From Bacillota bacterium (GTDB lineage: Bacteria; Bacillota; Clostridia; Acetivibrionales; DTU013): a DNA stretch of 64,000 nt. Position numbers and translations under genes: made by a program. Positions within the stretch are counted from its first letter, which is position 1; every line of letters begins with the position of its first letter. The DNA lies in NCBI GenBank assembly GCA_023411575.1, contig JAEYOP010000049.1:1-64000 (forward strand), written 5' to 3'. Shown one piece after another: positions 10,639-58,567 of this stretch. The notes beneath the pieces are model-generated. The model saw nothing but the letters and a program-made list of their open reading frames with translations. It was not told the origin of the DNA and made no database searches.

Positions 10639-11021
10639 GAAACCGACCTCCCAAAATGACGTTCTATCAGAAGGGCGTCATTTTTTACTTATGGGGCTAG
10701 TGTCATCATCTTGCCTCAAATACGGTGCATTTTGCACAGGCAAATTGCACTAGTGAGAGGGGCTCGATGCCTTGAGATTTTGCTTTCTCAGAAACGCAAT
10801 TTTGTTCAAAAATAAATACTTCAACATCGGAATTTTCTGCAAACGTCCTAAAATAAAGGCGTGGAGAAGGGCGTAATCAAAAGTTATGCCTTGCATCAAA
10901 AGTCATTATTGTATAAAAATTGAGTTCAATATAAGCTAATTTTAGAGATCATGCATCAAAAATGATTATAGCAGGGCAAATGCAACTACATTCCGGAACC
11001 GATAAAAAAGGAGATTATCCC

Positions 11022-11993
11022 ATGTCAGACCCTATGATTTCCGCCGTGGCGGGTGCCAGTGCAGTACTTGATCCCAGAGAAAGAAAAAACAAAAGAATCA
11101 AAGCCTATATCCGGAACAACTGGATGCTTTATTTGTTCTTTCTTCCGCCCCTGGCCTATTTCATCCTCTTCAAATATGCGCCGATGTACGGAATCCTGAT
11201 TGCGTTCAAGGATTACAATATCTTCCAGACGGTGTGGGACAGCCCGTGGAACAATTTCGCCACCTTCAAGGAAATCTTCTCCATGCCGGATTTCTGGAAC
11301 GCGCTTAAAAACACCTTTGTGCTCAATGCCCTCGATCTGATTATCGGGTTTCCCGCTCCGATCATTCTCGCCATCATATTGAGCGAAGTATACGTAGCGT
11401 GGTTTAAAAAGGTATCCCAAACCGTTCTGTACCTGCCGCATTTCCTTTCCTGGGTCATCATCGGCAGTATCTCGCTCCAGCTTTTCGCCCCGGAATCCGG
11501 ACTGTTCAATCTCGCCCTCATGAAGCTGGGCTTTCCGGCCGTTCCGTTTCTGACGGACAAGTGGGTATGGCTTGGAACGTACGTGTTCCTGGGATTGTGG
11601 CAGAGCATAGGCTGGAATATGATTCTTTATCTGGCCGCCATTGCGGGCATTAATCCGGAGCTGTACGAGGCCGCCGTCATCGACGGAGCAGGAAGGCTTC
11701 GAAAAATCTGGCACATCACGCTTCCGGGCATCAAGCCAACCGTTGTTATCATGCTGATCCTAGCTATCGGTAAAATTTCGGCGATCGGTTTCGACAGGCC
11801 TTATACCGTCGGAAACTCCCTGGTTATGGAGTTTTCCGATGTAATCAGCACCTTTGTATATCGAATCGGTATCCAGAACTTCCAGTACTCGATCGCAACT
11901 GCTGTGGGCCTGTTCCAGTCGGTCATAGGAATGATCTTCCTGCTGGTAACGAACTACATTTCGGAAAGACTTGGGGAGCAGGGAATCTGGTAA
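11022..11993 (+). CDS. CUT1-family sugar ABC transporter permease (LplB-like, long N-terminus)
   Basis: Six TM segments and the EAAxIDGA permease signature (EAAVIDGAGRL). RBS AAAAGGAGA. Confidence 0.85.
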   Translation: MSDPMISAVAGASAVLDPRERKNKRIKAYIRNNWMLYLFFLPPLAYFILFKYAPMYGILIAFKDYNIFQTVWDSPWNNFATFKEIFSMPDFWNALKNTFVLNALDLIIGFPAPIILAIILSEVYVAWFKKVSQTVLYLPHFLSWVIIGSISLQLFAPESGLFNLALMKLGFPAVPFLTDKWVWLGTYVFLGLWQSIGWNMILYLAAIAGINPELYEAAVIDGAGRLRKIWHITLPGIKPTVVIMLILAIGKISAIGFDRPYTVGNSLVMEFSDVISTFVYRIGIQNFQYSIATAVGLFQSVIGMIFLLVTNYISERLGEQGIW

Positions 11994-12019
11994 TCACCTG
12001 ATAATGGAGGATTTTAAAA

Positions 12020-12892
12020 ATGGTAACGAATGTTAAGGACAGAACTTTTAACGGAATAATGATCGCAATCATCACTTTCGTCTCGATATTATGTATCATT
12101 CCAATGGTATACCTGGTCGCCGTTTCTTTGAGCTCAAGCGGTGCGGTCATAGCCAGAAAGGTTTTCCTGTGGCCGGTAGAATTTAATTTTGGTGCGTATG
12201 AGGCCGTATTCAACGACAGGGCTATATTCAATTCCATGATATTTACCATATGGCTTACGGTGCTGTGCGCCATCTGCAGCATCCTGATCACAATTCTTGC
12301 GGCGTATCCCCTTACCAAGAAGCATCTGAAAGGCAGGAATTTCTTTCTGGTGCTGATCGTCATCACCATGTACTTTGGCGGCGGAACAATACCGGAATAC
12401 CTTTTGGTTCGGAGCCTCAACCTGGTCGATAAATTCTGGTCGCTGATGCTGCCCTATATGCTCAGCGCATTCAACCTGATCATCCTGAAGACCTTTTTCT
12501 CCGGTTTGCCCGAAAGCCTGGAAGAGTCGGCTTTCCTGGACGGCGCATCCTATTTTACGATCCTGTTTAAAATCGTGCTTCCGCTTTCCATGCCGGCCAT
12601 CGCCACCATTACGCTGTTTTACGCGGTCGGCCGCTGGAACGGCTTCCAGGATGCGCTGATGTTCATCAGCAGGCCGGAGCTGTACCCGCTTCAATTAAAG
12701 CTGTACATGCTGGTTTATAACAACCAGATGTCGGAGGTGGCCATTGTGGAGGGCTCCTCCACCGGCGGCCTTGCGCCGGAGAATTTGAAGGCCGCGGCGG
12801 TCATGTTCGCCACGGTCCCGATCCTTCTTGTGTACCCCTGGCTGCAGCGGTATTTCATCTCCGGTGTTACCATAGGCGCCATCAAGGGATAA
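12020..12892 (+). CDS. CUT1-family sugar ABC transporter permease (LplC-like)
   Basis: EESAFLDGAS motif and a C-terminal GAIKG. RBS GGAGGA. Confidence 0.85.
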   Translation: MVTNVKDRTFNGIMIAIITFVSILCIIPMVYLVAVSLSSSGAVIARKVFLWPVEFNFGAYEAVFNDRAIFNSMIFTIWLTVLCAICSILITILAAYPLTKKHLKGRNFFLVLIVITMYFGGGTIPEYLLVRSLNLVDKFWSLMLPYMLSAFNLIILKTFFSGLPESLEESAFLDGASYFTILFKIVLPLSMPAIATITLFYAVGRWNGFQDALMFISRPELYPLQLKLYMLVYNNQMSEVAIVEGSSTGGLAPENLKAAAVMFATVPILLVYPWLQRYFISGVTIGAIKG

Positions 12893-13072
12893 TTATCAAT
12901 CCGTATATAATAGTGATCCGCAGGGATATTGCCGGGCGTTTGTTTATACTGAATGAAACAAGGGGAGGTGTAGGAATTTATTATAAAGGATTCCCGGCAG
13001 GTTCAGAGAGATCACTTGATTATATAATGCACAAATGGTTGGATCCCATAATATTGAAATAGGAGGTTGTGT

Positions 13073-14890
13073 ATGAAAAAGCTTATTTCTCTTGTCTTAT
13101 GCGTATTCGTTTTATTATCCTTCGTGGTTTCGGCATCGGGTATCGCCGTTGTTGAAATCAAGGGCCTGAAAGCGGACAAATCCAGTTTGTCGCTGAATCC
13201 CGGCAGCTCCTACAAGCTCACGATCACCTTCAGCCCGGCCAATACCACACAGAAACTGTTGGTTTTCACAACCAGCAATGCAAACGTTGCAACCATTGAC
13301 ACAGACGGCAATATCACTGCTATCGGCGCAGGCAAAGCCACTATTACCGTTGCGAGCAAGAGCAAGGGCACCGTATCGACAAAGATTACGGTAACCGTTG
13401 TCAAGCCGAAGCCCGTCGTTCTCAGAGTAGAGGTATATGACAGGGGTAATGCCGGCGGCACTCCTCCCGACAATAACTATTGGACAAAATGGATCCAGGC
13501 CAATTATGGCGATAAGAACAACGTAACCCTGAAATTTGAAACCAGCCCGAGATTCGACAACAATGCGAAGCTCCAGATGTGGATGGCAGCCGGAACCGCT
13601 CCGGACATCTGCTATTCCAACGAGATCGATCCCGTAAGCAATTTCCACAATAACGGCGGTCTTGCCGATCTGAACGCGTCTTTGGATAAATACGGCGCCC
13701 GGTTGAAGGAATTCCTGGGAGACTACCTGTTAACCAAAGGTGTGGATTCCAAGACCGGAGAACGGTATCTGCTGCGTGCAAAAAAAGCTATTGATGCAAG
13801 GCAAGGCACCTGGATCCGGAAGGACTGGTTGGATAAGCTCGGTCAGCCGCTGCCCACGACAAGGGACGAGTGGTACAACGACATGAAGCTGTTCAAGGAA
13901 AAGAATCCAGACAACATGGGCAAGGTGGTTCCCTTCTGCATCAATACCGATGTAGGTTGGAGAGCCCAGACCCTTATTGAATCCTTTAAGACGGATAAAT
14001 CCGATATGACGCGCTACATCACCAACAACCGGTGGATGCAAATCTTTGCTCCGGGTGTCAAGGATGCGATCAAGTTCATGAACAAAATGTACAATGAGGG
14101 CCTGATCAGCAAGGAGTTCCCGCTGGATACCCAGGACGCCATCTGGACGGCCGATGTCATAAGCGGATTTGGTGGCTCCATTATTCACAATTACGATTTC
14201 GCGCTCCGGTCCCCCTCCCCCGGCCTGATTGTAAATCTTCAGGCAAGAAGACCCGATGCGCAGTTTGTTCCCTGTGATCCGTTCAAGGACAAGGACGGTC
14301 AGTATTCAAAGGAAATCGATGACGTTGCCGGTATCCAGATTTTTGTTCCTAAGACCAGCAAGGATAAAACGGACGAGGTTATCAAATACCTGAACTGGAT
14401 GGCTGATCCGGAAGTGCTGTTCTTCCTGCAGTACGGCGAAGAAGGCAAGAATTACACGATGAATAACGGCATTCCCCAGGTTGTCGCAGCCAAGGGAGAA
14501 ACAATTCAGAATTCTGCCAACAATATCGACTATACCATGATTGTAAACGGCGTTATGGGCACAACAAAGGCGGATACAATCAAGAGGAATTCACTGGCAT
14601 ATTCGGGCACTATGCAGACGCTTTACATACAGGCGTTTAATTACTCCGTCAATGACGGGTACATCAATCCCGCATCCAAAATAAATGAAACGACCACTGC
14701 CGACGGCAAGTATGGAAGCACTGTAACCATCAAGGCAAATGAAGTTTACGCAAGGACCATTACCTGCAAGCCTGAAGAGTTCGAATCCGTATGGACCCAG
14801 CAGACCAATGCCCTGCTGAGAGCCGGCGCGGGCGACATGATGACTGAAAGGAAAGCCCTGTGGAAGAAGCTTCACCCCGAGGCAAAATAA
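13073..14890 (+). CDS. Extracellular solute-binding protein with an N-terminal Big_2 (bacterial Ig-like) domain
   Basis: Signal peptide MKKLISLVLCVFVLLSFVVSASG. Big_2-like block ITFSPANTTQKLL...SNANVATIDTDGNITAIGAGKATITV. The C-terminal ~450 aa are lipoprotein-LplA-like SBP. RBS AGGAGG. Confidence 0.8.
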   Translation: MKKLISLVLCVFVLLSFVVSASGIAVVEIKGLKADKSSLSLNPGSSYKLTITFSPANTTQKLLVFTTSNANVATIDTDGNITAIGAGKATITVASKSKGTVSTKITVTVVKPKPVVLRVEVYDRGNAGGTPPDNNYWTKWIQANYGDKNNVTLKFETSPRFDNNAKLQMWMAAGTAPDICYSNEIDPVSNFHNNGGLADLNASLDKYGARLKEFLGDYLLTKGVDSKTGERYLLRAKKAIDARQGTWIRKDWLDKLGQPLPTTRDEWYNDMKLFKEKNPDNMGKVVPFCINTDVGWRAQTLIESFKTDKSDMTRYITNNRWMQIFAPGVKDAIKFMNKMYNEGLISKEFPLDTQDAIWTADVISGFGGSIIHNYDFALRSPSPGLIVNLQARRPDAQFVPCDPFKDKDGQYSKEIDDVAGIQIFVPKTSKDKTDEVIKYLNWMADPEVLFFLQYGEEGKNYTMNNGIPQVVAAKGETIQNSANNIDYTMIVNGVMGTTKADTIKRNSLAYSGTMQTLYIQAFNYSVNDGYINPASKINETTTADGKYGSTVTIKANEVYARTITCKPEEFESVWTQQTNALLRAGAGDMMTERKALWKKLHPEAK

Positions 14891-14923: not shown

Positions 14924-14955
14924 GAAGTTGAAAAACGAAGGACGAAAGTCCTTCG
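14924..14955 (+). terminator. Rho-independent terminator (aaaaacgaaggacgaaagtccttcgttttt)
   Basis: Perfect hairpin followed by a T-run after the SBP gene. Confidence 0.55.
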
Positions 14956-15028
14956 TTTTTCAAATCAATCCGGTTTAAATGTGTTATTATTATAGTAGTA
15001 TTGATTTTGTTCTCGCGAAGGGATGGTT

Positions 15029-17380
15029 ATGAAAAATCAGTCGTTGTTTTTCAAATTATTCTTTGTTCTGATCCTTTTTATCACTATCCCTGTCATTTCC
15101 GTAGCAAGCCTGATCAGCTATGAGATGACAAGGTATTCCGAGGACATCATCGGCAAATCCGCCATCAGCAAGCTGAAAACGGCGGATAAGCTGACGGAAC
15201 TGACTTCTGCCAATTTCACCCAGCGGGCCCTTGAGATGACAAGGGGATCGTCCTTGACGGATTTGAACGGGATGAGCCGGTTCGATGAGGTCTTTTCCAG
15301 CCCCGACGCCATCATGAAGCTCTACGACGTGCAGACCGAGCTCGGGGATCTGGCGAACTCCAACGCTTCTCTTCATTCCGTGTATCTTTACATCGAAGGC
15401 GCGGATTATATTATGACCTCCAACCGGGGCACCCAGGATATCGAACAGTTTGCGGATACAGGCTGGATGGCGTATTACGAGCGCCTGAAGAAAACACAGA
15501 CCGGGTCCAACTGGATGTCCACCAGGACGGTCCGGTATACGAGGGATTCCACCGGGGAGCTGGGCGCATCCAACAAGGTAATCACCTTCTTTTACAATTT
15601 TACGCCTTATACCACGACCGTAAAGGGCGTATTGGTTTTCAACATCTACGAACCGTCCATGCGGGATATCATTAATAACGACAGCACTTTAAAAGACGGC
15701 CATATAAGGATCGTCAATACGAGCGGCTATATCATATCCGATATAGAAGAGGGTAAGGTCGGCACAAATATCAACAGCCAGCCCTATTTTCAGAAGATCA
15801 AGGAGAATACCTCCAACGAAGGGTACCTGATTACGACGGACCAGAATGAAAGATTGCTGATCTCGTACTATAAATCCGATTTCAACAACTGGATCTACCT
15901 CGGCATCTTCCGGGCCAACGCACTAATGGAGAAGATAAACACCCTGCGGTCCTATACCATCTTTATCTGCCTGGTGCTTATCCTGGTGGGCGTCCTGATT
16001 TCCTATTTCGCCTCCAAAAAGATATACAATCCCCTGAAGAACCTTCTCCAGGATATTCAGCAGAAGAGGGGGATCGACATCCGGAGCAACGACAGCGACA
16101 TGGCCATATTGTCCAAGGCTTACGACAATCTGCTGCGGGACCGGGACAGGCTGTCTTCCATCATTGAGCACAAGGACAGCAATAAAAACATCTATCTGAC
16201 CAGCCTGCTCAAAGGAGAGAACGGAGGCTACTTCGACAAGGAGCTGACGGGCATCGATTTCAGCTTCAGCAGCTATATCTGCGCCGTTATCCAGATCGAC
16301 CGGTACAAGGAATTCGAGAAGGCCTATACGAAGGAACAGCAGGATTACATGAGGATGTTCATCCTGAAGATTTCGGAAGAGCTGCTCAACGCCGATCTGA
16401 AATGCGCCGGCATGGTCTATGAGAAGAGAAAAATCGCCCTGATCGTCAATTATAAAAATTATAACGAAGTCGGCGTGAAAAAGGTGCTGGAAGGGGTCTT
16501 TGTCCAGATTCAGAATGAAACCGGCAAGATCATGGACTATACGGTTTCCGTCGGAGTCGGCAATTGCCAGGAATCCGCGGAGGGGATCGGCGAGTCCTTC
16601 GACCGGGCGCTGGAGGCCCTGCGCCACAAGCTGATCAACGGGTACGGAAGCATCAATTTCTGGGACGACGCCAGCGATGAAAATTTCGCTTATTATTATC
16701 CCTTTGTTCATGAGAAATACATCTTCAACATCCTGAACGCGGGGATAAAGGATAAGCTGGCGGATGTAATCACGGAGCTTGTACAGGAAATCAAGGACAA
16801 CCGGGATCTGCATTACGACAATGTCATCCAGATTTTCAACCAGTTGATCGGCAATACGGTCAAGTACCTGTTGGACGCTCATTACAATGTCAGCATGATT
16901 TTCGGAAACAATTACAATATCTATAACGCGCTCTCCTCCAAGGAAACCCTGGACGAGGTGAAGGAATGGCTCATATCCGTGTATACTCAGATAGCAGATT
17001 ACCTCGCCAAATCGCGGAATCCGTCCAAAAACCACTTTGAACGCGCTTTGGAGTACATCCACGAAAATTACAAAAGAGAGATCGATATCAATAGCGTGGC
17101 CGAGTATGCCGGCGTCAGCTATTCCCATCTCCGGAAGATTTTCCGGGATGAGGCGGGAGAAAACATCGTCAATTATATCAATAATCTCCGGATCAATGAG
17201 TCCAAACGCCTGCTGTGCAGCACGGACCAGACGATCCGGGAAATCTCCGCAGCGCTGGGCTATAACAGCGACCAGAGCTTCGTACGGTTCTTCAAGAAAT
17301 ATGAGGGCATCACGCCCGGAGAATTCCGTTATTCCGGCAAATCCGGCGAAACCGGGGCCCGGGATGTTTCCGGCCAATAG
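15029..17380 (+). CDS. Membrane-anchored one-component AraC-family regulator (two TM helices, ~280-aa extracytoplasmic sensor, cytoplasmic YesN-like middle domain, AraC HTH)
   Basis: TM1 at residues ~8-30 and TM2 at ~300 (IFICLVLILVGVLISYFA). C-terminal AraC HTH (...YSHLRKIFRDEAGENIVNYINNLRINESKRLL...GYNSDQSFVRFFKKYEGITPGEFR). No HATPase or REC domain. Confidence 0.8.
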   Translation: MKNQSLFFKLFFVLILFITIPVISVASLISYEMTRYSEDIIGKSAISKLKTADKLTELTSANFTQRALEMTRGSSLTDLNGMSRFDEVFSSPDAIMKLYDVQTELGDLANSNASLHSVYLYIEGADYIMTSNRGTQDIEQFADTGWMAYYERLKKTQTGSNWMSTRTVRYTRDSTGELGASNKVITFFYNFTPYTTTVKGVLVFNIYEPSMRDIINNDSTLKDGHIRIVNTSGYIISDIEEGKVGTNINSQPYFQKIKENTSNEGYLITTDQNERLLISYYKSDFNNWIYLGIFRANALMEKINTLRSYTIFICLVLILVGVLISYFASKKIYNPLKNLLQDIQQKRGIDIRSNDSDMAILSKAYDNLLRDRDRLSSIIEHKDSNKNIYLTSLLKGENGGYFDKELTGIDFSFSSYICAVIQIDRYKEFEKAYTKEQQDYMRMFILKISEELLNADLKCAGMVYEKRKIALIVNYKNYNEVGVKKVLEGVFVQIQNETGKIMDYTVSVGVGNCQESAEGIGESFDRALEALRHKLINGYGSINFWDDASDENFAYYYPFVHEKYIFNILNAGIKDKLADVITELVQEIKDNRDLHYDNVIQIFNQLIGNTVKYLLDAHYNVSMIFGNNYNIYNALSSKETLDEVKEWLISVYTQIADYLAKSRNPSKNHFERALEYIHENYKREIDINSVAEYAGVSYSHLRKIFRDEAGENIVNYINNLRINESKRLLCSTDQTIREISAALGYNSDQSFVRFFKKYEGITPGEFRYSGKSGETGARDVSGQ

Positions 17381-17431
17381 GGCGGCTGCTGGGCGGGCCG
17401 GATAAGACAATGAAAAACAGTGAGGAAAATG

Positions 17432-19516
17432 ATGAAAAGAACCATAGAAGATAGAAAAGAGCAAACCATTGACCGGTGTTGGCTCCGATATAACAGATTG
17501 TCGAACGCCGGTCTGATCGAGGAATATAAAAAGTGGTGCGCCGGCATCGTCCTGCAGGAGGATTCGCCGGTGTGCCTGAATGCGCTGGAGGAGCTGAAAA
17601 AAGGAATCTGGGGGATGCTTGGAATCCGGCCCCGGGTAACGCGTTCCGCTTTGCAGGGCGCCCACATCCTGCTGGGAACTCTGGAAGGGAATCCTTCCCT
17701 CCCTGCTTTGCTGGGAATGGACCCGAAAGCTTCCGTAGGGGAGGACGGCTTTGCAATCCGGTTCGTCGGGACAGCGAACAGGAAGATCCTGGTGGTTGCC
17801 GGCCGGAACGGCAAAGGCCTGCTGTACGGCGTATTCTGTCTGTTGAGGGCCATGCAGACCCAGACGGAACCGGGGGACCTGCCGAGAACGGAAGGTCCGG
17901 CGAATAAGCTCCGGATGGTCAACCACTGGGATAACATGGACGGAAGCGTCGAAAGGGGATATGCGGGCCGGTCCCTCTTTTTCAGCGGCAACAAGCTCCT
18001 CCGGAACCACGGCAGGATACGGGAATATGCCAGGCTCCTGGCGTCGGTGGGCATCAACGGCGTCGTGATCAACAATGTCAATGTTCATAAATTCGAAACC
18101 CGGCTGATCTCCGGCGAATTCCTGGGGCCGGTTTCGAAGCTGGCGGACGTGTTCCGCCCTTATGGAATAAGGCTTTTCCTCAGCGCCAATTATGCCAGTC
18201 CCATGGAACTGGGCGGACTGGCCACGGCGGACCCGCTGGACGAGGGGGTCTGGCAGTGGTGGAAGGACAAGGCGGCGGAGATTTACCAGGCCATACCGGA
18301 TTTCGGCGGCTTTTTGATCAAAGCCGATTCCGAATTCCGGCCGGGGCCGTTCACCTACGGCCGCAGCCATGCGGACGGCGCCAATATGCTGGCCGAAGCG
18401 CTGGCGGACCACGGCGGGCTCGTCATCTGGAGGTGCTTTGTTTACAATTGCCTCCAGGATTGGCGGGACCGCGCGGTGGACAGGGCGAAGGCCGCGTATG
18501 GCAATTTCATGCCGCTGGACGGCCGGTTCCGGGACAATGTGCTGCTGCAGATCAAGAACGGACCCATGGATTTCCAGGTCCGCGAACCGGTGTCCCCGTT
18601 GATCGGGGGCCTGCGGAAGACCAACTTTACCCTGGAACTCCAGATCACGCAGGAATATACGGGACAGCAAAAGCACCTGTGCTATCTGGTCCCCATGTGG
18701 AAGGAAGTCCTGGATTTCGACACCTTTGCACGGGGGAAAGGGTCCACGGTTAAGGAGATCGTCAGCGGGCGGGTCTTCCGGAACGAGCCCGGTGGGTTCG
18801 CCGCTGTGGTCAATGTGGGCAACGACCCGAACTGGACCGGCTTTCAGTTGGCCCAGGCGAATTTGTACGGTTACGGCCGGCTGGCGTGGGATCCCTGTCT
18901 GCCGGCGGAGCAAATAACGGACGAGTGGGTCCGGATGACCTTTTCAAACGATCAGGCGGTCACGGACACTATATCCGGAATGCTGCTGGAGTCCTGGAGA
19001 ATTTACGAAAATTACAACGCGCCCCTTGGAATCGGCTGGATGGTGAACCCGAACCATCATTTCGGTCCCAATGTGGACGGCTACGAATACGCCAAATGGG
19101 GGACCTACCACCGGGCGGACAGCAAAGGCATCGGCGTGGACCGGTCTGTCGCGTCGGGAACCGGTTTCGCGGGGCAGTATCACAAAGAAGTGGCGCAGGC
19201 CTATGAAAAGATTGAAACCTGCCCGGAAGAGCTTCTCCTGTTCTTTCACCGGGTACCCTACGACTACGTGCTGAAATCGGGCGAAACGCTGATCCAGCAT
19301 ATATACAACACCCACTTCGAAGGAGTGGAGCAGGTTCAGAGCTTCATCGACAGGTGGCTCGGCTTGAAGGGACAGGTGGACGGCGCCCTTTTCGAGCATG
19401 TGCTGGAAAGGCTGGAAGGACAGCTGGAGCATGCGAAGGAATGGAGAGACGTGATCAATTCCTATTTTTACCGGAAAACCGGCATCGAGGACCGGAAGGG
19501 CAGGAAGATTTATTAA
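17432..19516 (+). CDS. aguA: Alpha-glucuronidase, GH67
   Basis: ~695 aa with GH67-like blocks ([36 protein letters not shown]). RBS GTGAGGAAA. Confidence 0.85.
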
Positions 19517-19539
19517 AGTGAGCGGTGAAGGAGAAGCGA

Positions 19540-21477
19540 ATGAAACCCATTGAATTGCGGCTTCCTCGTCTGATCAGCGACGGAATGGTGCTGCAAAGGG
19601 AACGGGAAGTGAATATTTGGGGCTGGGCTATTCCCGGGGCTTCGGTGACCGTGCATTTTCTGGGTTCCGTTTATCGGACCGGGGCCGGGGAGGATGGCAG
19701 GTGGAAGGCAAAGCTGCCTCCTATGAAAGCCGGAGGCCCGTATTCCATGAAAATCGAGTCTTGCGGAAAAGGCATTACGGTAAACGACATCCTGATCGGC
19801 GAGGTTTGGGTCTGCTCGGGACAGTCCAACATGGTACTGCCCATGTACCGGGTCTGCGAGCGCTACGCGGAGGAGATCACCCTGTCCTACAACCTGTCCA
19901 TCCGGCTTTTCATCGTCCCCGACCGGTGGGACTTCAACGAGGCCTGGGAGGACCTGGAATCCGGGCGGTGGGAGTCGCCGAACCCGGAGAGCATTCTGCA
20001 CTTTCCCGCCACGGGATATTTTTTTGCAAAGGCTTTGTTTGAACGGTATCATGTGCCGATAGGCTATATAAATGCAAGCGTGGGCGGCTCGCCCATCGAG
20101 GCGTGGCTGAGCGGGGATTCCCTGGAAAGCTTCCCGCAATACAAGGAAATCGCCTGCCGGTACAAGGATGAGCGCTATGTAGAACAGGTCAGGCAGGAAG
20201 ACGAGGAAGCCAGTAACAGATGGCATGACTATATATGCCGGATGGACCGGGGGCTGTCGGAAAGAGGGAACGAATGGTACCTAGAGGAGTATGACGATTC
20301 GGACTGGCCCTCCATGAACCTGCCTGCTTTTTGGGCGGAGAAGGGGCTCGGGCCCTTGAACGGCGTGGTCTGGTTCCGGAAGGAGTTCCGGGTCGGTCCC
20401 GAAATGGCGGGGGAGCCCGCGAAACTGCTGATGGGCAGGATTGTGGACAGCGATACAGTTTACGTAAACGGGCTGCTGGTCGGAACCACCGGTTACCAAT
20501 ACCCGCCCAGGCGGTATGCCATTCCCGGGAATGTGCTGAAGGCGGGCAGGAACGTCATTGTCGCCAGGGTGGTCAACACTTCCGGCAAAGGCGGCTTTGC
20601 GCCGGGAAAACCCTATAAGATCCTGGCAGGAGACCGGGAGGTGGATTTGTCGGGCGAATGGCGGTATTGCGTGGGAGCCGCTGCGGAACCGCTACGGGAA
20701 GCGACCTTCTTCCAGTACATGCCCTCGGGCTTGTTCAACGGTATGCTTTCTCCCCTTCTAAAGTATACGATCCGGGGTGTCAACTGGTACCAGGGGGAGT
20801 CCAATACGTCCAGGCCTTCGGATTACCGGCTGCTGCTGGCGGAATTGATCCGGGACTGGCGGGAAAAACGGAAGCAGGGGGAGCTGCCGTTTCTGTATGT
20901 GCAGCTGCCCAATTACCTGGAAGAGGACGACAGCCCGGCCAAAAGCGGCTGGCCTGAAATCCGGGAGGCCCAGCGCAGGACCCTGTCCGTTCCGAATACC
21001 GGAATGGCCGTCGCCATTGACGCGGGGGAATGGAATGACCTGCATCCCCTGAACAAGAAGGAGATCGGAAGCCGGCTGGCGTTGCTTGCCCGGAAGATCG
21101 CCTACGGGGAGGATATCGTGTGCTCGGGTCCCCTTTTGAGATCCGTTACCCTCCAAGGGACAAGAGCGGTTATCGAATTTGAGAAAGGAAGCGGAACCCT
21201 GGTCGCAAAAGGGGACGGGGAATTGAGGTGCTTTGAAATAGCAGGAGAGGACGGCGTATTTGTCCGGGCCAAAGCCGCTATTGAAGAGAACAAGGTCGTG
21301 GTATGGAGCGACGGAATCGACCGGCCTTCGGCGGTTCGCTACGCGTGGGTGGACAACCCGGAGGGGGCCAACCTGTACAACCGGGAAGGACTGCCGGCAT
21401 CGCCTTTCCGGGCGGAAATCACGCCGGCCGCGCCGGCTTCTATTTCCTCAGCAGAGCAGAGGGAGGCAGTCCTGTAA
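19540..21477 (+). CDS. SASA/DUF303-family carbohydrate esterase (sialate-O-acetylesterase-like; probable acetyl-xylan/oligosaccharide deacetylase)
   Basis: CSGQSNM motif of the SGNH-type sialate O-acetylesterase fold, present in duplicate (a second copy reads GESN). RBS AAGGAG. Confidence 0.7.
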   Translation: MKPIELRLPRLISDGMVLQREREVNIWGWAIPGASVTVHFLGSVYRTGAGEDGRWKAKLPPMKAGGPYSMKIESCGKGITVNDILIGEVWVCSGQSNMVLPMYRVCERYAEEITLSYNLSIRLFIVPDRWDFNEAWEDLESGRWESPNPESILHFPATGYFFAKALFERYHVPIGYINASVGGSPIEAWLSGDSLESFPQYKEIACRYKDERYVEQVRQEDEEASNRWHDYICRMDRGLSERGNEWYLEEYDDSDWPSMNLPAFWAEKGLGPLNGVVWFRKEFRVGPEMAGEPAKLLMGRIVDSDTVYVNGLLVGTTGYQYPPRRYAIPGNVLKAGRNVIVARVVNTSGKGGFAPGKPYKILAGDREVDLSGEWRYCVGAAAEPLREATFFQYMPSGLFNGMLSPLLKYTIRGVNWYQGESNTSRPSDYRLLLAELIRDWREKRKQGELPFLYVQLPNYLEEDDSPAKSGWPEIREAQRRTLSVPNTGMAVAIDAGEWNDLHPLNKKEIGSRLALLARKIAYGEDIVCSGPLLRSVTLQGTRAVIEFEKGSGTLVAKGDGELRCFEIAGEDGVFVRAKAAIEENKVVVWSDGIDRPSAVRYAWVDNPEGANLYNREGLPASPFRAEITPAAPASISSAEQREAVL

Positions 21478-23460: not shown

Positions 23461-23513
23461 ATAAGAAAAGAAACAGGGGGGCAAGTACTTTGCCCCCCTG
23501 TTTTTGACTCTGG

Positions 23514-34580: not shown

Positions 34581-36854
34581 TTACGCTGTCCCCGCGCTTT
34601 TCCGGAAATCGGCCGGCGTCACGCCGTTGAGCTTCTTAAAGGTTTTGAAGAAATAGGAGCAGTTGGCCAGCCCGATCTTTTCGGCGATTTTGGTGATGGG
34701 GTACTGGGTTTTCTGCAGCAGGTCCTTTGCCTTGTCCATCCGCACCTCCATGAGATAGTCGGGGATCGTTTTCAGCGTCTTCTGCTTGTAAAGTTTGCTG
34801 ATATAGGACGGACTCATGTTGAGCTTATCCGCTATGGTGTTCAGGCACAGGTCCGGGTTTTCATATTCCGCATAAATGATGTTGTTGATGCTGTGTACGA
34901 GATTTTCATGCTTCATGCTGCGTTTCCCGTCCAGCATCAGCTTCATTTCGTCAAAAAGCCGGAAGAACCTTCCGTTCACCTCTTCCAGGGTATCGATGGC
35001 GCCGGCGTTCAGGACGGAAATACGGATGTCCGGCTGGAAAAGCAGCGAATTGTTTTTGCATACGATATTGATGGTGTTCGATACGGTCAGGGCAAGATGG
35101 GAAACGACAAAGTTCACGACGGCGAAAGGATAGTTCACCGTATCATTGACAATTTCGCGATACAGGCTTTTCATCGTCTCCGTATCATAGCTGAGAATCG
35201 CTTCCATAAGCTGCTTTTCCTTCTGCATGGGATAAACATATTCCTTTTCTTTCAACCGCATAATGTCCTGCGACCGGATTATGCAGCTGTACCCGTAAAA
35301 CAGCCGGTGGTTGGACGCCTCAAGCAACTGGTTGTACAAGGCGGCTGCCTTTTCCATCAGCCCTTCGGCCGGACCTACGGTGATCGAGACGGAGGCATCG
35401 ACAAATTCCCGGATATGAGAGGGGAAGGAGAAAAGCAGCTCCCGGAATTCCGCACTTTCCAGGGCCATATCGTCGCCGTTGGGATTCAGGAGCAAAACAA
35501 TGCGGTCTTCTCCCATGTCCACGGCCTCCGCGGAGAAACGGGCGGAGCACAATTCCGCCGCGATATTGCCGATTCCGAACCGGTAAAGCTTCAGATCCTC
35601 TATACTGTGCTGCCGGGACAATTCTCCGTAGCGGTCGATCCGCAGCAGAACCATCAGCAGATTTCCTTCCGGCTGCAGGCAGATGTCGTATTCCCTGAAA
35701 TTTTTCTGCAGGGACGGAAGCCCGGTGGATTCCCTGCCCAGGAGCAGGTTGCTGAGGTACTCCTGCTTCAGGATCTTGTTCCGGTTGTACCGTTCCATCT
35801 CCAGCAGCTTCAGGTTGACGAGCTTTTTATCGATAGGGCGCGAGAGCTGCCTTGAAACGGCGAAGGCCAGCAGGAAGCTGAGCAGGAGAATGATCGAGCA
35901 GATGGTGATCAGGTGGTGGGTCATTTGCTCCACATCGCTGAAGATGACGTCATAGGGCGTTACCCGGATATACCGCCACCCGAGGGAGTCCGGGCTCGTG
36001 TAGGTGATAAAGGATTTTGTCCCGGATACGGAGTCGATGAGATAACCGGAGGTATCCGCATGGGAAAGGATATACTGGATATAGGACCTGGAGGAAAGAT
36101 CGGTCAGCATCCTGTCGTTCTTGCTATTGGAGGCCAGCCGGCCTGTGCTGTCGATAATGAAGGTATCGCTCAGGGGACTTTTCGCGCTGGCGGTCATCAC
36201 GTCATGGATCCAGCTTTCCGCGATGTTGACGAATACGACGCCGCTGCTGGTTTCATCATAGGCAAAAGGATCATAATAAAGGAAGGTATAGCAGCTATAG
36301 AATTCCGAGCCGGGAACATCAAAAGTAAAACACCGGGGTATGGGCTCGTAAATCCGGTATTGCTCGATATTGTCGATGAGCCGGATGATATCCCGGTCGG
36401 CGAAATTGGTTTTTTCGTGGGTACTTCCAAGCAGACCGTCGATATTCTTGTCCTCGTTGTTCGTACTGGCGAAAAAGGTTTCGGTAGAGCTGTTGTACAG
36501 GTAGATCGAGTCGATGAACGGCATGGACACCTTGTAGCTCCCAAGCTGGTTGATGGCGGGGGTAATGTCGTATACATCGGGTTCGGAGAAATAAAGCAGC
36601 TTGGAGATGTACAAATCCGAATAAATCTGGCTGGACAGGGTCCTTGCCATTTCCGTCATGGTGGAGACCTCGTTGCTGGTTTGCGCCATACTGTCCAGGT
36701 TGTCGGAGTATACGATGTTCCTGGCAATATCACGGAATTTTACATACAGCACCGAGGACGAAATAATGGTGGTGACAACAATACAGGTGATCAGGGACAG
36801 AAACAGCTTTATATACAGCTGGCTGTTCTTTTTCGTAAACAGTTTTTTGCGCAT
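34581..36854 (-). CDS. Membrane-anchored one-component AraC-family regulator (paralog of 15029..17380)
   Basis: TM1 (LFLSLITCIVVTTIISSSVLYV), a ~270-aa extracytoplasmic region, TM2 (LITICSIILLLSFLLAFAV), a cytoplasmic middle domain and a C-terminal AraC HTH (...SPSYISKLYKQKT...CSYFFKTFKKLNGVTPADFR). RBS GGAGGAATG. Confidence 0.8.
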   Translation of the reverse strand: MRKKLFTKKNSQLYIKLFLSLITCIVVTTIISSSVLYVKFRDIARNIVYSDNLDSMAQTSNEVSTMTEMARTLSSQIYSDLYISKLLYFSEPDVYDITPAINQLGSYKVSMPFIDSIYLYNSSTETFFASTNNEDKNIDGLLGSTHEKTNFADRDIIRLIDNIEQYRIYEPIPRCFTFDVPGSEFYSCYTFLYYDPFAYDETSSGVVFVNIAESWIHDVMTASAKSPLSDTFIIDSTGRLASNSKNDRMLTDLSSRSYIQYILSHADTSGYLIDSVSGTKSFITYTSPDSLGWRYIRVTPYDVIFSDVEQMTHHLITICSIILLLSFLLAFAVSRQLSRPIDKKLVNLKLLEMERYNRNKILKQEYLSNLLLGRESTGLPSLQKNFREYDICLQPEGNLLMVLLRIDRYGELSRQHSIEDLKLYRFGIGNIAAELCSARFSAEAVDMGEDRIVLLLNPNGDDMALESAEFRELLFSFPSHIREFVDASVSITVGPAEGLMEKAAALYNQLLEASNHRLFYGYSCIIRSQDIMRLKEKEYVYPMQKEKQLMEAILSYDTETMKSLYREIVNDTVNYPFAVVNFVVSHLALTVSNTINIVCKNNSLLFQPDIRISVLNAGAIDTLEEVNGRFFRLFDEMKLMLDGKRSMKHENLVHSINNIIYAEYENPDLCLNTIADKLNMSPSYISKLYKQKTLKTIPDYLMEVRMDKAKDLLQKTQYPITKIAEKIGLANCSYFFKTFKKLNGVTPADFRKSAGTA

Positions 36855-37749: not shown

Positions 37750-38039
37750 GTCCGTTGCTGTTCCTTTTCCTGTTTTTGGGGATTTCGTTCTGAAAAGTGC
37801 GTACTTCTTTCTTTTTTATTATAAGAAAACGAAGAACCTCCGGCAAGCTCATCACAGAAAATTGCACAATAGGCAGAAAAGTAGAGTCCGATTTTCTTTT
37901 AAGTACACAAAAGAACGAAAAGTGCAGTTTCAATCAAACCGGTCCCGTGCTTATAATTAGACTCACAGCAAGGGTGTTCCGAAGGGAAGTCATAATTTCA
38001 TGAGCCTTGTTCCGCAAGGCCGCTTGGGAGGGTTTATCC

Positions 38040-38969
38040 GTGAAACTGAAACGAGAAAGTACATTGCTCTACGATTTTAAAAAGAACAAAGTAATGCTTT
38101 TGATGGTTTCCCCCATCGTCATTTTCTTCTTTATAAATTCGTATCTGCCAATGGTCGGTATCTATTATGCATTTACAAAATTCAATTTTGAAGGCGGCTT
38201 GTTCGGAAGTCCCTTTGTAGGACTTGAAAACTTCAAGTTCCTGGTCCAGTCCGGAACCATTCTGAAAATCACGACCAATACGGTCCTGTATAATCTGGCC
38301 TTTATCCTTCTGGGAAATTTCCTGCAGATCTTCATCGCGATCCTGCTCAGCGAAATTCCGGCCAGGCGCTACGCCAAGTTTACCCAGTCGGCGATGTTCC
38401 TGCCCTATTTCGTATCTTACGTTATCGTAGGCGTTTTGGTTTACAACCTGTTCAACTATGAATCCGGGCTGGTCAACGGAACGTTGAAATCCATGGGACT
38501 TGCCGCATTCGATGCGTACAGCACCCCCTGGATCTGGAAATTCGTTTTGGTCGCCCTGTATTTATGGAAACAGCTCGGGTATGGTACCGTCATCTACCTG
38601 GCCGCCATCATGGGCATCAGCTCCGAGTTTTATGAAGCGGCTAAAATCGATGGGGCCAATATCTTCAAACAAATCCGCCACATTACGATCCCGATGCTGG
38701 TCCCGACCTTCATCATCCTGTTCCTCTTCAGCCTGGGAAGCATCATGCGCGGGCAGTTCGACCTGTTCTACCAGGTAATCGGCTCCAATGGAGTTCTTTT
38801 CGACGCGACGGACATCATCGATACTTATGTATTCCGTGCCTTAAGGCAGAATTTCGATGTCGGCATGGGAACCGCGGCTGGTCTGTATCAGTCCCTGTTC
38901 GGTTTCATTATCATTCTCACGGTCAACTGGCTGATCAAAAGAAGCCACGAAGAATACGCACTGTTTTAG
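38040..38969 (+). CDS. CUT1 sugar ABC permease (LplB-like)
   Basis: GTG start preceded by GGGAGGG. EAAKIDGANIF permease signature. Confidence 0.8.
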   Translation: MKLKRESTLLYDFKKNKVMLLMVSPIVIFFFINSYLPMVGIYYAFTKFNFEGGLFGSPFVGLENFKFLVQSGTILKITTNTVLYNLAFILLGNFLQIFIAILLSEIPARRYAKFTQSAMFLPYFVSYVIVGVLVYNLFNYESGLVNGTLKSMGLAAFDAYSTPWIWKFVLVALYLWKQLGYGTVIYLAAIMGISSEFYEAAKIDGANIFKQIRHITIPMLVPTFIILFLFSLGSIMRGQFDLFYQVIGSNGVLFDATDIIDTYVFRALRQNFDVGMGTAAGLYQSLFGFIIILTVNWLIKRSHEEYALF

Positions 38970-38981
38970 GAGGTCTGTCTC

Positions 38982-39878
38982 ATGTCGAAAATAAGAAATG
39001 CAAAAAGCACTACTGTTTTTAATCTCATAGCCTATATCATCGTCGGCATCTTTGCGGTTTTGAGTATCCTGCCGTTTTGGCTGATTATTTCCGGCTCCTT
39101 TACCTCAAACGAATCCATCATCCTGCATGGATACCGCTTGTTCCCCGAGGCCTTCTCCCTGGAGGCCTACAACGCAATTTTCATCATCCCGGAGGGAATC
39201 TTCAACGCTTACAAGATCACCATTTTCGTGACGCTTGTCGGAACGCTGAGCGGCCTTTTCCTGATCTCCATGGGCGGATACGTGCTGCAGAGGAAAGACT
39301 TCCGGAGCCGGAACAAAATCTCGTTTTTCGTGTACTTTACGACCCTGTTCCAGGGCGGCCTGATTCCGTGGTACATCCTGCTGACCAATTACCTTGGCCT
39401 GAAGGACAAGATTGCCGTATTAATCTTACCCGGACTGATGACGCCGTTCCTGATCATCCTGATGAAGAACTTTATCAAAATGGCTGTGCCGGATGAGGTG
39501 ATCGAATCCGCAAAAATCGACGGAGCAGGGGACTTTAAAATTTACCGCAGCATCGTGCTTTCCCTTTCCGGACCGGGACTTGCGACCATCGCCCTGTTCC
39601 TGGCCCTCCAATACTGGAACGACTGGTTTATGAGCATGCTTTACATCGATACGCCGGAGAAATACAGCCTCCAGTTCTTCCTCTACAACATGCTCAACGG
39701 AGCCGAATTCCTGAGAAATCTCTCCCAGGGCGCAGGCGTGAACATCAGCGTCCAGATCCCCGCCGAGACCACCAAGCTGGCGATGGCGGTAGTTGTTGTC
39801 GGCCCCATTATATTCCTTTATCCCTTCATCCAGCGCTTTTTCGTAAAAGGCTTGACCATCGGCGCGGTAAAAGGCTGA
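38982..39878 (+). CDS. CUT1 sugar ABC permease (LplC-like)
   Basis: RBS AGGAGG. ESAKIDGAGDF motif and a C-terminal GAVKG. Confidence 0.85.
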   Translation: MSKIRNAKSTTVFNLIAYIIVGIFAVLSILPFWLIISGSFTSNESIILHGYRLFPEAFSLEAYNAIFIIPEGIFNAYKITIFVTLVGTLSGLFLISMGGYVLQRKDFRSRNKISFFVYFTTLFQGGLIPWYILLTNYLGLKDKIAVLILPGLMTPFLIILMKNFIKMAVPDEVIESAKIDGAGDFKIYRSIVLSLSGPGLATIALFLALQYWNDWFMSMLYIDTPEKYSLQFFLYNMLNGAEFLRNLSQGAGVNISVQIPAETTKLAMAVVVVGPIIFLYPFIQRFFVKGLTIGAVKG

Positions 39879-39998
39879 CGGAGTATTTAAGGTATAACAG
39901 GAATCCAATTTGCAAGGGAGGTGCACCGGTTTTATTATTCACCTGTCTCAAATGAAGCAAGGGACCCCGTATTTAAAATTTTGAATGGAGGATGGTTT

Positions 39999-47547: not shown

Positions 47548-47548
47548 G

Positions 47549-54871: not shown

Positions 54872-55008
54872 CCGAATCATAAAATGGATCCGGACAGAAC
54901 GGGGCATGGCGAAGGCCCGCCCCTGAATTTTCTTATATTGCGGGGGGTGTACGGTCGGGTTATAATAGTTATGTCAACAGTACTATGCTGCCTGACAAGA
55001 GGAGCGAT

Positions 55009-58560: not shown

Positions 58561-58567
58561 CGGCCGC

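What the first reader, a model, noticed from the sequence alone, without database searches (positions are those of the whole stretch)
15029..17380. Membrane-anchored one-component AraC regulators: YesM-like sensor fused to YesN-like output without kinase or receiver (two paralogs)
Two proteins share this architecture, at 15029-17380 (785 aa) and 34581-36854 (757 aa, minus strand). Each has TM1, a ~270-aa extracytoplasmic domain, TM2, a cytoplasmic middle domain resembling the region between REC and HTH of the YesN-type response regulators at 50294 and 56814, and a C-terminal AraC HTH. They have no His-kinase/HATPase and no receiver domain. They look like collapsed YesM/YesN two-component systems that signal without phosphotransfer. 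Each sits beside a Big_2-SBP ABC transporter, and the 757-aa copy also sits beside a cupin-AraC. Signal transduction through such a kinase-less fusion is mechanistically unexplained.
Basis: partly seen in the sequence, partly recalled or inferred. Interest (0 to 1): 0.6.

Follow-up and report, generated by a model that had tools for sequence, protein, structure and literature searches.

The report
Membrane-anchored AraC sugar-sensing regulators
Two genes encode membrane-spanning AraC-type regulators that join an outside-facing sensor to a DNA-binding domain with no kinase or receiver; the description is correct, but they belong to a very large, generically annotated Bacillota family, so they are ordinary members of an under-studied kind.

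Summary
ORFs 15029-17380 (+, 783 aa) and 34581-36854 (-, 757 aa) are full-length homologues of each other. Each has TM1, an extracytoplasmic dCache domain, TM2, a degenerate GGDEF-fold domain with a helical domain, and an AraC two-HTH domain. No His-kinase, HATPase or receiver domain was detectable by Pfam, profile-profile comparison or fold search.

The N-terminal half is homologous to the sensor, TM2 and HAMP region of the YesM-type kinases in the same window. The middle part is homologous to the REC-to-HTH region of the YesN-type regulators.

They are not rare. A profile without the HTH finds 5,767 cluster representatives at E<=1e-30, nearly all of the best 150 being 730-795 aa. Adjacency to an LplABC-type sugar ABC transporter holds in most related loci, down to about 20% identity.

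The best reading is a phosphotransfer-independent, membrane-tethered activator of the neighbouring transporter and glycosidase operon.

Precedents exist:
- TfoS of Vibrio.
- 16 membrane-bound AraC regulators beside CAZyme genes in Saccharophagus.
- Probably B. subtilis YesS, whose central region binds HPr. I could not fetch its sequence to test this.

Verdict: new member of a known kind, of moderate interest.

The parts
15029..17380 (+). REG_A: 783-aa membrane-anchored AraC regulator (785 aa if started at 15023)
   Evidence: ORF; Pfam; AF2 model with pLDDT 83.5; homologues
15053..15121 (+). REG_A TM1 (about aa 9-31), signal-anchor helix continuing into the sensor
   Evidence: Hydropathy; single helix 2-72 in the model
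15146..15928 (+). REG_A extracytoplasmic dCache sensor (about aa 40-300)
   Evidence: Pfam dCache_1 E=5.6e-8, below cut-off; Foldseek hits to dCache ligand-binding domains, TM-score (target) 0.6-0.78, E down to 3e-9; hhalign to YesM sensors
15941..16018 (+). REG_A TM2 (about aa 305-330)
   Evidence: Hydropathy; helix 301-346
16025..16168 (+). REG_A HAMP-like helix-loop-helix (about aa 333-380), inferred
   Evidence: Aligns with the HAMP of the YesM kinases in hhalign. Model shows helix, low-confidence loop 346-357, helix. No Pfam HAMP hit at E<=1. Largely deleted in the B subfamily.
16262..16663 (+). REG_A degenerate GGDEF-fold domain (about aa 412-545)
16703..17017 (+). REG_A helical linker domain (about aa 559-663), shared with YesN-type regulators
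   Evidence: AF2 secondary structure; hhalign with the YesN profile covers it
17033..17356 (+). REG_A AraC/XylS two-HTH DNA-binding domain (about aa 669-776)
   Evidence: Pfam HTH_18 E=3.1e-21. The best PDB matches include YesN-type regulator HTH domains: 6swi (E=1.6e-35) and 3lsg, with the HTH domain of Lin2118 (3oou) between them.
34581..36854 (-). REG_B: 757-aa paralogue with the same architecture (dCache about 35973-36704, HTH about 34599-34835)
   Evidence: ORF; Pfam; full-length alignment to REG_A; homologues in Paenibacillus and Cohnella
10962..14890 (+). ABC transporter A: two permeases (10962-11993, probably starting at 11022; 12020-12892) and a Big_2-SBP (13067-14890). Presumed target operon of REG_A.
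   Evidence: Pfam; permease-permease-SBP-regulator synteny kept in the orthologous loci L002-L010 and in the Anaerocolumna/Lachnospiraceae loci L014-L016 and L018
10892..10969 (+). Candidate operator: 18-nt direct repeats TGCATCAAAAGTCATTAT (10892-10909) and TGCATCAAAAATGATTAT (10952-10969), plus a weaker copy at 10876
   Evidence: the repeat finder. The pattern gives 3 matches in the window (0.3 expected by chance); the two within 1 mismatch are both here, and a 2-mismatch match lies at 25759. The core is enriched upstream of the first permease gene in 11 related loci (16 observed against 2.2 expected). Assignment to REG_A is inferred.
14928..14963 (+). Perfect 16-bp hairpin between the SBP gene and REG_A; likely a partial terminator or mRNA stabiliser
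   Evidence: the repeat finder; fold of -29.2 kcal/mol, z = -7.1
17420..21477 (+). GH67 alpha-glucuronidase (17420-19516) and SASA-type esterase (19525-21477) downstream of REG_A; they suggest a glucuronoxylan-oligosaccharide specificity
   Evidence: Pfam; same order in contig L001
36901..37749 (-). Cupin-AraC regulator next to REG_B (a cytoplasmic one-component partner)
   Evidence: Pfam AraC_binding plus HTH; cupin-AraC genes also lie beside REG_A orthologues (L002, L005-L007, L010)
38007..41771 (+). ABC transporter B: two permeases and a Big_2-SBP with DUF3502, divergent from the cupin-AraC/REG_B pair
   Evidence: Pfam; REG_B relatives are divergent from the same transporter type in Paenibacillus psychroresistens, Cohnella soli and metagenome contigs
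37860..37928 (+). 28-nt imperfect direct repeat (37860-37887 and 37901-37928, 71% identity) in the divergent promoter region of locus B
   Evidence: the repeat finder; not tested for conservation
48445..51526 (+). Comparator: YesM-type kinase (48445-50319) and YesN-type regulator (50276-51526) following an ABC transporter
   Evidence: Pfam dCache_1, HAMP, His_kinase, HATPase_c; REC, GGDEF_2, HTH_18
54985..58355 (+). Comparator: second YesM (54985-56817) and YesN (56814-58355) pair following an ABC transporter
   Evidence: Pfam

Best explanation
REG_A and REG_B are membrane-anchored one-component transcription activators of the AraC/XylS family.

Proposed mechanism:
- An extracytoplasmic dCache domain detects an oligosaccharide released from plant cell-wall polymers. 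For A this is probably glucuronoxylan-derived aldouronates or xylo-oligosaccharides. For B it is probably an arabino- or galacto-oligosaccharide.
- The conformational change passes through TM2. In A it also passes through a HAMP-like helix-loop-helix.
- It reaches a catalytically dead GGDEF-fold domain and a helical domain.
- These reposition the C-terminal AraC DNA-binding domains of a membrane-bound dimer, which bind tandem repeats upstream of the adjacent LplABC-type ABC transporter and glycosidase operon and activate it.
- No phosphotransfer is involved.

The proteins take the same place beside their transporters that YesM/YesN pairs take beside the other two transporters in this window, and they are built from the same sensor and output modules.

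Shown: the architecture, the homologies, the lack of detectable kinase and receiver domains, the family size, and the linkage to the transporter. Inferred: ligand identity, direct ligand binding, activation rather than repression, dimerisation, and the operator.
For: - Architecture and topology.
- dCache fold.
- Sensor, TM2 and HAMP homology to YesM, ending before the kinase core.
- Middle-domain homology to YesN, starting after REC.
- GGDEF fold with a degenerate signature.
- Complete AraC HTH domain; its best PDB matches include YesN-type HTH domains.
- No kinase or receiver domain in the two window proteins at E<=1, and none among the 25 families matched by most of 49 members.
- Family size: 5,767 representatives at E<=1e-30 with a profile lacking the HTH. 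The best 150 are nearly all 730-795 aa and cover the whole profile.
- Gene linkage: permease-permease-SBP-regulator order in the closest orthologous loci and in the Anaerocolumna and Lachnospiraceae loci. More distant relatives, down to about 20% identity (Halalkalibacter, Chengkuizengella), keep the transporter genes next to the regulator in another order. The B subfamily lies divergent from the same transporter type.
- Positional equivalence with the YesM/YesN pairs in this window.
- A direct repeat upstream of transporter operon A holds the only two close matches to the pattern in the window and is conserved in related loci.
- AraC regulators next to CUT1 ABC transporters in Caldicellulosiruptor have tandem-repeat sites upstream of promoters and are predicted activators: PMC8579813.
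- TfoS shows that a membrane-bound AraC regulator can be switched on by oligosaccharides without phosphotransfer: PMC3903286.
- YesS of B. subtilis, a 761-aa AraC/XylS protein that follows an ABC transporter in its operon, is a positive regulator of that operon: PMC2788870.
Against: - There is no experimental data for these proteins or for any confirmed close relative.
- The Pfam dCache_1 scores are below the curated cut-off; the fold assignment rests on an AlphaFold model.
- The ligand is guessed from neighbouring enzymes only.
- The candidate operator could belong to the cupin-AraC regulators that accompany many of these loci.
- No convincing shared repeat was found in the divergent promoters of three B-subfamily loci.
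- The HAMP-like segment is not recognised by Pfam and is mostly missing in the B subfamily, so it cannot be a general part of the mechanism.
- YesS overproduction activated its reporter in LB without added inducer (PMC2788870), so ligand dependence is not established even there.
Confidence: 0.65

Rival explanations
1. SBP-assisted sensing. The dCache domain does not bind the sugar itself. It reads the liganded state of the neighbouring solute-binding protein or the transporter, as in three-component systems. The regulator would then report transport flux or SBP occupancy.
For: - The regulator gene is almost always next to an SBP gene.
- Some relatives have an extra SBP gene directly beside the regulator (L033/L034; two SBP-like hits after the regulator in L021/L023).
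- In Ruminiclostridium cellulolyticum a second SBP, CuaD, encoded beside a two-component system, is needed for signalling (PMC10384115).
- SBP-stimulated sensors are reviewed in PMC8050422.
- The SBPs here carry an unusual extra Big_2 domain.
Against: - Loci A and B each have only the transporter's own SBP.
- dCache domains usually bind small ligands directly (the hits are ligand-bound dCache domains).
- No interaction was tested.
Confidence: 0.2
2. The membrane sensor is secondary. The main control is cytoplasmic, through the degenerate GGDEF-fold domain acting as a docking site for HPr (carbon catabolite control) or for a nucleotide. The protein would mainly integrate intracellular state.
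For: - The central region of B. subtilis YesS (aa 406-510) binds HPr and His~P-HPr, and YesS activity depends on His~P-HPr (PMC2788870).
- That region corresponds in position to the GGDEF-fold domain here (aa 412-545 of REG_A).
- An aspartate in the first strand (D424) is nearly invariant in the family.
Against: - Membership of YesS in this family could not be tested here.
- The sensor domain and both TM helices are conserved across thousands of clusters, which argues that they are used.
- The GGDEF signature and hairpin are degenerate.
- The two inputs are not mutually exclusive.
Confidence: 0.1
3. Accessory of the YesM/YesN systems. The protein pairs with a YesM kinase through its sensor, TM or HAMP parts, or with a YesN regulator through the shared middle domain. 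It would modulate a phosphorelay rather than signal on its own.
For: - It shares homologous modules with both partners.
- YesM/YesN pairs lie in the same window.
- In B. subtilis, yesMN lie in the same cluster as yesS (PMC2788870).
Against: - Many loci with the regulator have no kinase or receiver gene next to it.
- The protein has a complete DNA-binding domain of its own.
Confidence: 0.04
4. Artefact: a frameshifted or mis-assembled fusion of a sensor gene and a regulator gene, or a decayed hybrid kinase.
For: None found.
Against: - The same single-ORF architecture occurs in thousands of 50%-identity clusters with matching lengths and in complete genomes.
- An identical protein is found on an independent contig.
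- GC3 equals that of the neighbouring genes.
Confidence: 0.01

Closest known systems
B. subtilis YesS (RhgR), with its paralogue YtdP as I recall it
   Same: YesS is a 761-aa AraC/XylS protein with the two HTH motifs at the C-terminus. Its gene follows an ABC transporter (yesOPQ) and precedes degradative enzymes. It is a positive regulator of its operon (PMC2788870). ytdP sits in ytcPQ-ytdP-ytePRSTUV, beside ABC transporter genes (PMC5730181). From my memory of UniProt, both are annotated as multi-pass membrane proteins of 761 and 772 aa.
   Different: I could not obtain their sequences, so homology and topology are untested here. The YesS paper does not mention membrane segments or a sensor domain; it describes the central region only as an HPr-binding domain. 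The sugar specificities differ (rhamnogalacturonan there; probably glucuronoxylan and arabino- or galacto-oligosaccharides here).
TfoS of Vibrio cholerae (membrane-bound AraC-type chitin sensor)
   Same: One polypeptide with a large outside sensor domain, a membrane anchor and a cytoplasmic AraC HTH. It is switched on by oligosaccharides without phosphotransfer, including in E. coli (PMC3903286).
   Different: The paper describes one transmembrane helix and a different, larger periplasmic domain. No dCache, HAMP-like or GGDEF-fold module is described. It comes from a Gram-negative host and targets an sRNA promoter. Sequence relatedness was not tested here.
YesM/YesN-type two-component systems (AraC-output regulators beside CUT1 ABC transporters)
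   Same: The sensor, TM2 and HAMP region and the middle domain plus HTH are homologous. They hold the same genomic position next to an ABC transporter.
   Different: His_kinase, HATPase_c and REC domains are not detectable. Sensor and output are one chain.
Membrane-bound AraC regulators of Saccharophagus degradans
   Same: Sixteen membrane-bound AraC-type one-component regulators, several with two TM regions, lie next to cellulase or xylanase genes. They were proposed to sense extracellular polysaccharides (PMC2386152).
   Different: They are in a gammaproteobacterium. Their sensor domains were not compared here. They are bioinformatic predictions only.
Bacteroides hybrid two-component systems (HTCS)
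   Same: A single membrane protein with an outside glycan sensor and an AraC output domain that controls polysaccharide utilisation (review PMC10766802). An HTCS HTH domain is among the PDB matches (12aw).
   Different: HTCS keep kinase, phosphoacceptor and receiver domains within the chain. These proteins have none detectable.
PucR/CdaR-type regulators (GGDEF_2 domain plus HTH)
   Different: Those proteins are soluble and, as I recall, carry a PucR-type rather than an AraC-type HTH domain.

Membership tests
AraC/XylS transcription factors | Conserved domain of about 100 aa with two helix-turn-helix motifs | tested here: met
   HTH_18 at 75.9 and 67.2 bits (cut-off 33.6) and HTH_AraC. The profile matches MarA, SoxS, AraC and YesN DNA-binding domains over their full length.
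Membrane-bound one-component regulators | Sensor outside, membrane anchor and DNA-binding domain in one chain, with no phosphotransfer domain | tested here: met
   Predicted only. Two TM segments, dCache between them, cytoplasmic HTH, and no detectable kinase or receiver.
dCache_1 sensor domains | Double PAS-like fold on a long N-terminal helix, between two TM helices | tested here: met
   Pfam scores are below the cut-off (33.1 and 22.2 against 45), with hits in 37 of 49 members. The AF2 model matches dCache ligand-binding domains (Mlp24 6iou TM-score 0.78, 3lid, 9hvj).
Sensor histidine kinases (YesM type) | His_kinase/HisKA dimerisation-phosphoacceptor domain and HATPase_c | tested here: not met
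Response regulators (YesN type) | Receiver (REC) domain with the phospho-acceptor aspartate | tested here: not met
HAMP domain | Helix (AS1), flexible connector, helix (AS2) directly after TM2 | tested here: inconclusive
   REG_A residues 333-380 align with the HAMP of the YesM kinases and are modelled as helix-loop-helix. There is no Pfam HAMP hit at E<=1. The B subfamily lacks about 30 residues of it.
GGDEF diguanylate cyclases | GGDEF fold | tested here: met
GGDEF diguanylate cyclases | GG[DE]EF active-site signature in the beta2-beta3 hairpin | tested here: not met
   The hairpin reads VYEKRK in REG_A and DMGEDR in REG_B, and it varies across the family. These proteins should not be called cyclases.
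YesS/YtdP of B. subtilis | Sequence homology over the full length and the same two-TM topology | not testable with these tools
   The sequences could not be fetched. Supporting points come from the literature (761 aa, C-terminal HTH, operon position; PMC2788870, PMC5730181). The membrane annotation is from memory.
TfoS-like regulators | Homology of the periplasmic sensor domain to TfoS | not tested
   No TfoS sequence was available. The similarity is in architecture only (PMC3903286).

The most novel reading that the evidence does not exclude
The degenerate GGDEF-fold domain is shared by this family and by the YesN-type response regulators. It may be a general docking module for HPr or His~P-HPr, as reported for the central region of YesS. 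If so, thousands of polysaccharide-utilisation regulators in Bacillota would combine an outside sugar signal with PTS-based catabolite control in one protein. These kinase-less fusions would then give a simple, phosphorylation-free system for studying how a dCache signal crosses the membrane to a DNA-binding domain.
Probability: 0.2. Interest if true: 0.6.

Novelty: new member of a known kind. Interest (0 to 1): 0.35.

Why it matters
Plant-polysaccharide utilisation loci of Bacillota are usually described as controlled by two-component systems, LacI/GntR-type repressors or soluble AraC proteins. A 2024 review of hemicellulase regulation (PMC10766802) does not list membrane-bound one-component AraC regulators among its regulatory models.

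This window shows such regulators standing in for YesM/YesN pairs beside otherwise similar transporters. The family is very large but carries only generic names, and some members are mislabelled as 'response regulator YesN'.

Recognising the class would improve annotation and regulon prediction. It also offers compact one-protein oligosaccharide biosensors. It does not reveal a new signalling principle.

Tried and rejected
- The third homologue search, with the family alignment, returned essentially the same proteins as the first and added nothing.
It was repeated with the A-subfamily alignment.
- The afdb50 fold library was not available.
- I tried to find B. subtilis YesS or YtdP among the cluster representatives by length and name. 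Twenty clusters were looked up and none was from Bacillus subtilis.
- Phrase searches for 'membrane-bound AraC' and similar mostly matched 'arachidonic'.
- The promoter and terminator consensus scans gave counts no higher than in shuffled sequence.
- Direct-repeat searches in the divergent promoters of three B-subfamily loci gave no shared motif.
- Horizontal acquisition was considered and rejected, because GC3 of both genes equals that of their neighbours.
- An active diguanylate cyclase was considered and rejected, because the signature is degenerate.
Full report

Yes. ORF listing shows an ORF at 15023..17380 (+, 785 aa) and one at 34581..36854 (-, 757 aa). The second ATG, at 15029, lies 5-6 nt after an AAGGGA motif and gives the N-terminus MKNQSLFFK, which homologues share. 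The gene is therefore best written 15029-17380, 783 aa.

Kyte-Doolittle scanning finds exactly two strongly hydrophobic segments in each protein, at about residues 10-32 and 305-335. Lys/Arg residues lie at the extreme N-terminus and just after TM2. This predicts N-in, C-in, with a loop of about 270 residues outside. The same two-segment pattern, centred near residues 20 and 315, occurs in nearly all full-length homologues retrieved.

The two proteins align over their whole length (21% identity, E=2.5e-32). GC3 of both genes (0.71 and 0.72) equals that of neighbouring genes, so nothing suggests recent acquisition or assembly error. An identical copy of the first protein lies on an independent JGI metagenome contig with the same downstream genes.

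**2. Domain anatomy**

Pfam gives the following:
- HTH_18/HTH_AraC at the C-terminus, well above threshold.
- dCache_1 over the outside loop, below the curated cut-off.
- For REG_A, GGDEF_2 just below cut-off at residues 408-532.

Across 49 family members the hits are HTH 49/49, dCache_1 37/49, GGDEF_2 35/49 and GGDEF_GdpP 15/49. No HisKA, His_kinase, HATPase_c, Response_reg or HAMP model hits either window protein at E<=1. None is among the 25 families matched by most of the 49 members; that table lists 25 of 95 families matched.

An AlphaFold2 model of REG_A (mean pLDDT 83.5) shows:
- a long helix 2-72 (TM1 running into the sensor);
- an alpha/beta sensor up to residue 300;
- a single helix 301-346 (TM2 and beyond);
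- a low-confidence loop 346-357;
- helices 357-394;
- an alpha/beta domain 415-545;
- a helical domain 559-663;
- the HTH domain 669-776.

Foldseek against the PDB matches the sensor to dCache ligand-binding domains of chemoreceptors and kinases (for example Mlp24 6iou with target TM-score 0.78, and 3lid and 9hvj at E of about 3-5e-9).

- No CheY-like, DHp or Bergerat-fold protein is among the 60 matches listed.

The beta-hairpin that carries GG[DE]EF in cyclases reads VYEKRK in REG_A and DMGEDR in REG_B and varies in the family, so the domain is not a cyclase.

**3. Relation to the YesM/YesN systems in the same window**

The kinases at 48445-50319 and 54985-56817 are TM-dCache-TM-(HAMP)-His_kinase-HATPase. 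The regulators at 50276-51526 and 56814-58355 are REC-(GGDEF_2)-HTH_18.

A family profile without the HTH was compared with both:
- It aligns with the kinase pair at probability 98.2% (E=5.7e-14), over family columns 118-377 and kinase columns 130-386. This covers the sensor, TM2 and HAMP and stops before the His_kinase domain.
- It aligns with a YesN-type profile at probability 94.6% (E=6.7e-8), over family columns 389-658 and regulator columns 148-427. This starts just after REC and runs to the HTH.
- The best PDB matches of the HTH include HTH domains of YesN-type regulators (6swi, 3lsg).

REG_A keeps a HAMP-like helix-loop-helix (NPLKNLLQDIQQ / KRGIDIRSNDS / DMAILSKAYDNLL). The REG_B subfamily has lost about 30 residues there. 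Which arrangement is ancestral cannot be decided from these data.

**4. How common is it?**

HMMER was run with the HTH-less profile against 1.84 billion 50%-identity representatives. It finds 31,957 proteins at E<=1e-3, 16,402 at E<=1e-10 and 5,767 at E<=1e-30. Nearly all of the best 150 are 730-795 aa, cover the whole profile and leave about 120 residues for the HTH.

Named members come from Paenibacillus, Cohnella and Petroclostridium. A genome scan adds unclassified Bacillota MAGs, Hungateiclostridiaceae, Anaerocolumna, Lachnospiraceae, Chengkuizengella, Halalkalibacter, Alkalihalobacillus and one Spirochaetaceae MAG.

Source names are generic: 'AraC family transcriptional regulator', 'helix-turn-helix domain-containing protein' and, wrongly, 'two-component system response regulator YesN'. 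The frameshift-fusion alternative is excluded.

**5. Genomic context**

In the window, REG_A follows two permeases and a Big_2-SBP and precedes a GH67 alpha-glucuronidase and a SASA-type esterase. REG_B lies next to a cupin-AraC. The pair is divergent from two permeases and a Big_2-SBP with DUF3502, with GH2, GH127, GH43-like and GH42-like genes around.

tblastn of the window's neighbours against the related loci shows two things:
- The permease-permease-SBP-regulator order is kept in the orthologous loci L002-L010 and in the Anaerocolumna and Lachnospiraceae loci L014-L016 and L018.
- More distant relatives, down to about 20% identity (L020-L026), keep the transporter genes next to the regulator in another order, downstream or divergent.

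Three REG_B relatives, in Paenibacillus psychroresistens, Cohnella soli and a metagenome, are divergent from the same transporter type.

The other two ABC transporters of the window (44989-48376 and 51623-54871) are each followed by a YesM/YesN pair. The one-chain regulators and the two-chain systems thus occupy equivalent places.

**6. Possible cis elements**

Upstream of transporter operon A there are two 18-nt direct repeats, TGCATCAAAAGTCATTAT at 10892 and TGCATCAAAAATGATTAT at 10952, plus a weaker copy at 10876. The 15-nt pattern has three matches in 64 kb against 0.3 expected. The two within one mismatch are both here; a two-mismatch match lies at 25759. Its 9-nt core, with up to one mismatch, occurs 16 times in the upstream regions of the window and 11 related loci, against 2.2 +/- 1.7 in shuffles. 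Whether it belongs to REG_A or to the cupin-AraC that accompanies many of these loci is open.

A perfect 16-bp hairpin (-29.2 kcal/mol, z = -7.1) lies between the SBP gene and REG_A. It would lower regulator expression relative to the SBP.

**7. Mechanism**

The best-supported reading (confidence about 0.65) is a membrane-tethered, phosphotransfer-independent activator. It senses outside oligosaccharide through dCache and transmits through TM2 (and the HAMP-like module in A) to a dead GGDEF-fold and helical module. This sets the geometry of the AraC domains on tandem sites of the adjacent operon.

Three lines of literature support this:
- TfoS is a membrane-bound AraC regulator activated by chitin oligosaccharides even in E. 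coli (PMC3903286).
- AraC regulators beside CUT1 transporters in Caldicellulosiruptor have tandem-repeat sites upstream of promoters and are predicted activators (PMC8579813).
- B. subtilis YesS is a 761-aa AraC/XylS protein that follows yesOPQ in its operon. It activates that operon, and its central region (aa 406-510) binds HPr and His~P-HPr (PMC2788870). That region coincides in position with the GGDEF-fold domain here. The link would be important, but I could not fetch the YesS sequence to test it.

The rivals are SBP-assisted sensing (precedent CuaD, PMC10384115; review PMC8050422), mainly cytoplasmic control through the middle domain, a role as accessory of YesM/YesN, and artefact.

**8. 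Novelty**

Membrane-bound one-component regulators, including AraC types next to polysaccharide-degradation genes, were noted in 2008 (PMC2386152), and one was proven in 2014 (PMC3903286). This particular dCache, degenerate-GGDEF, AraC family is very large and probably includes a studied B. subtilis protein. Its transmembrane signalling has not been examined in anything I could find, and a 2024 review of hemicellulase regulation omits the class (PMC10766802).

I therefore rate it a new member of a known kind, with moderate interest (0.35).

Noticed in passing
window 22363-26767: Just after the GH67/esterase genes and a cupin-AraC lie two URO-D-family genes (22363-23460 +, 23514-24545 -), a PocR-AraC regulator (24748-26070) and a B12-binding corrinoid protein (26132-26767). 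This looks like a corrinoid methyltransferase set. Its position beside a GH67 that releases 4-O-methylglucuronate suggests an O-demethylase for that sugar acid. The same genes follow on contig L001.
   Followed up: no
window 13067-14890, 39921-41771, 44989-46563: Three ABC solute-binding proteins carry an N-terminal Big_2 (bacterial Ig-like) domain in front of the SBP fold, which is unusual. The first has a signal peptide without a classical lipobox. The Big_2 domain might mediate cell-surface attachment or contact with the sensor.
   Followed up: no
window 21440-22225, 27945-28835, 36901-37749, 60734-61636; loci L002, L005-L007, L010: Four cupin-AraC regulators lie in 64 kb. A cupin-AraC recurs next to the membrane-anchored AraC or its transporter in the window and in orthologous loci. 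This suggests paired outside (membrane AraC) and inside (cupin AraC) sugar sensing.
   Followed up: partly
window 14928-14963: A perfect 16-bp inverted repeat with a 4-nt loop lies between the SBP stop codon and REG_A (-29.2 kcal/mol, z = -7.1). It is likely a partial terminator or mRNA-stabilising hairpin.
   Followed up: partly
window 27057-27884 (-): This ORF combines a Phd/YefM antitoxin-like N-terminus with a Uma2 (putative restriction endonuclease) domain. It is an odd fusion inside a carbohydrate-utilisation region.
   Followed up: no
window 58442-60103 (+) and 64-1098 (+): A 553-aa ORF directly after the second YesM/YesN pair has no Pfam hit and a lower GC3 (0.59) than its neighbours (about 0.70). 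The ORF at 64-1098 also has no Pfam hit.
   Followed up: no
loci L033/L034 6232-7815; L021/L023 about 10500-13200: Some relatives of the regulator have an extra SBP gene directly beside it, in addition to the transporter's SBP. This is reminiscent of three-component systems.
   Followed up: no
window 48445-51526: As listed, the first YesM kinase ORF and its YesN regulator ORF overlap by 44 nt (50276-50319). The regulator probably starts at a later codon.
   Followed up: no
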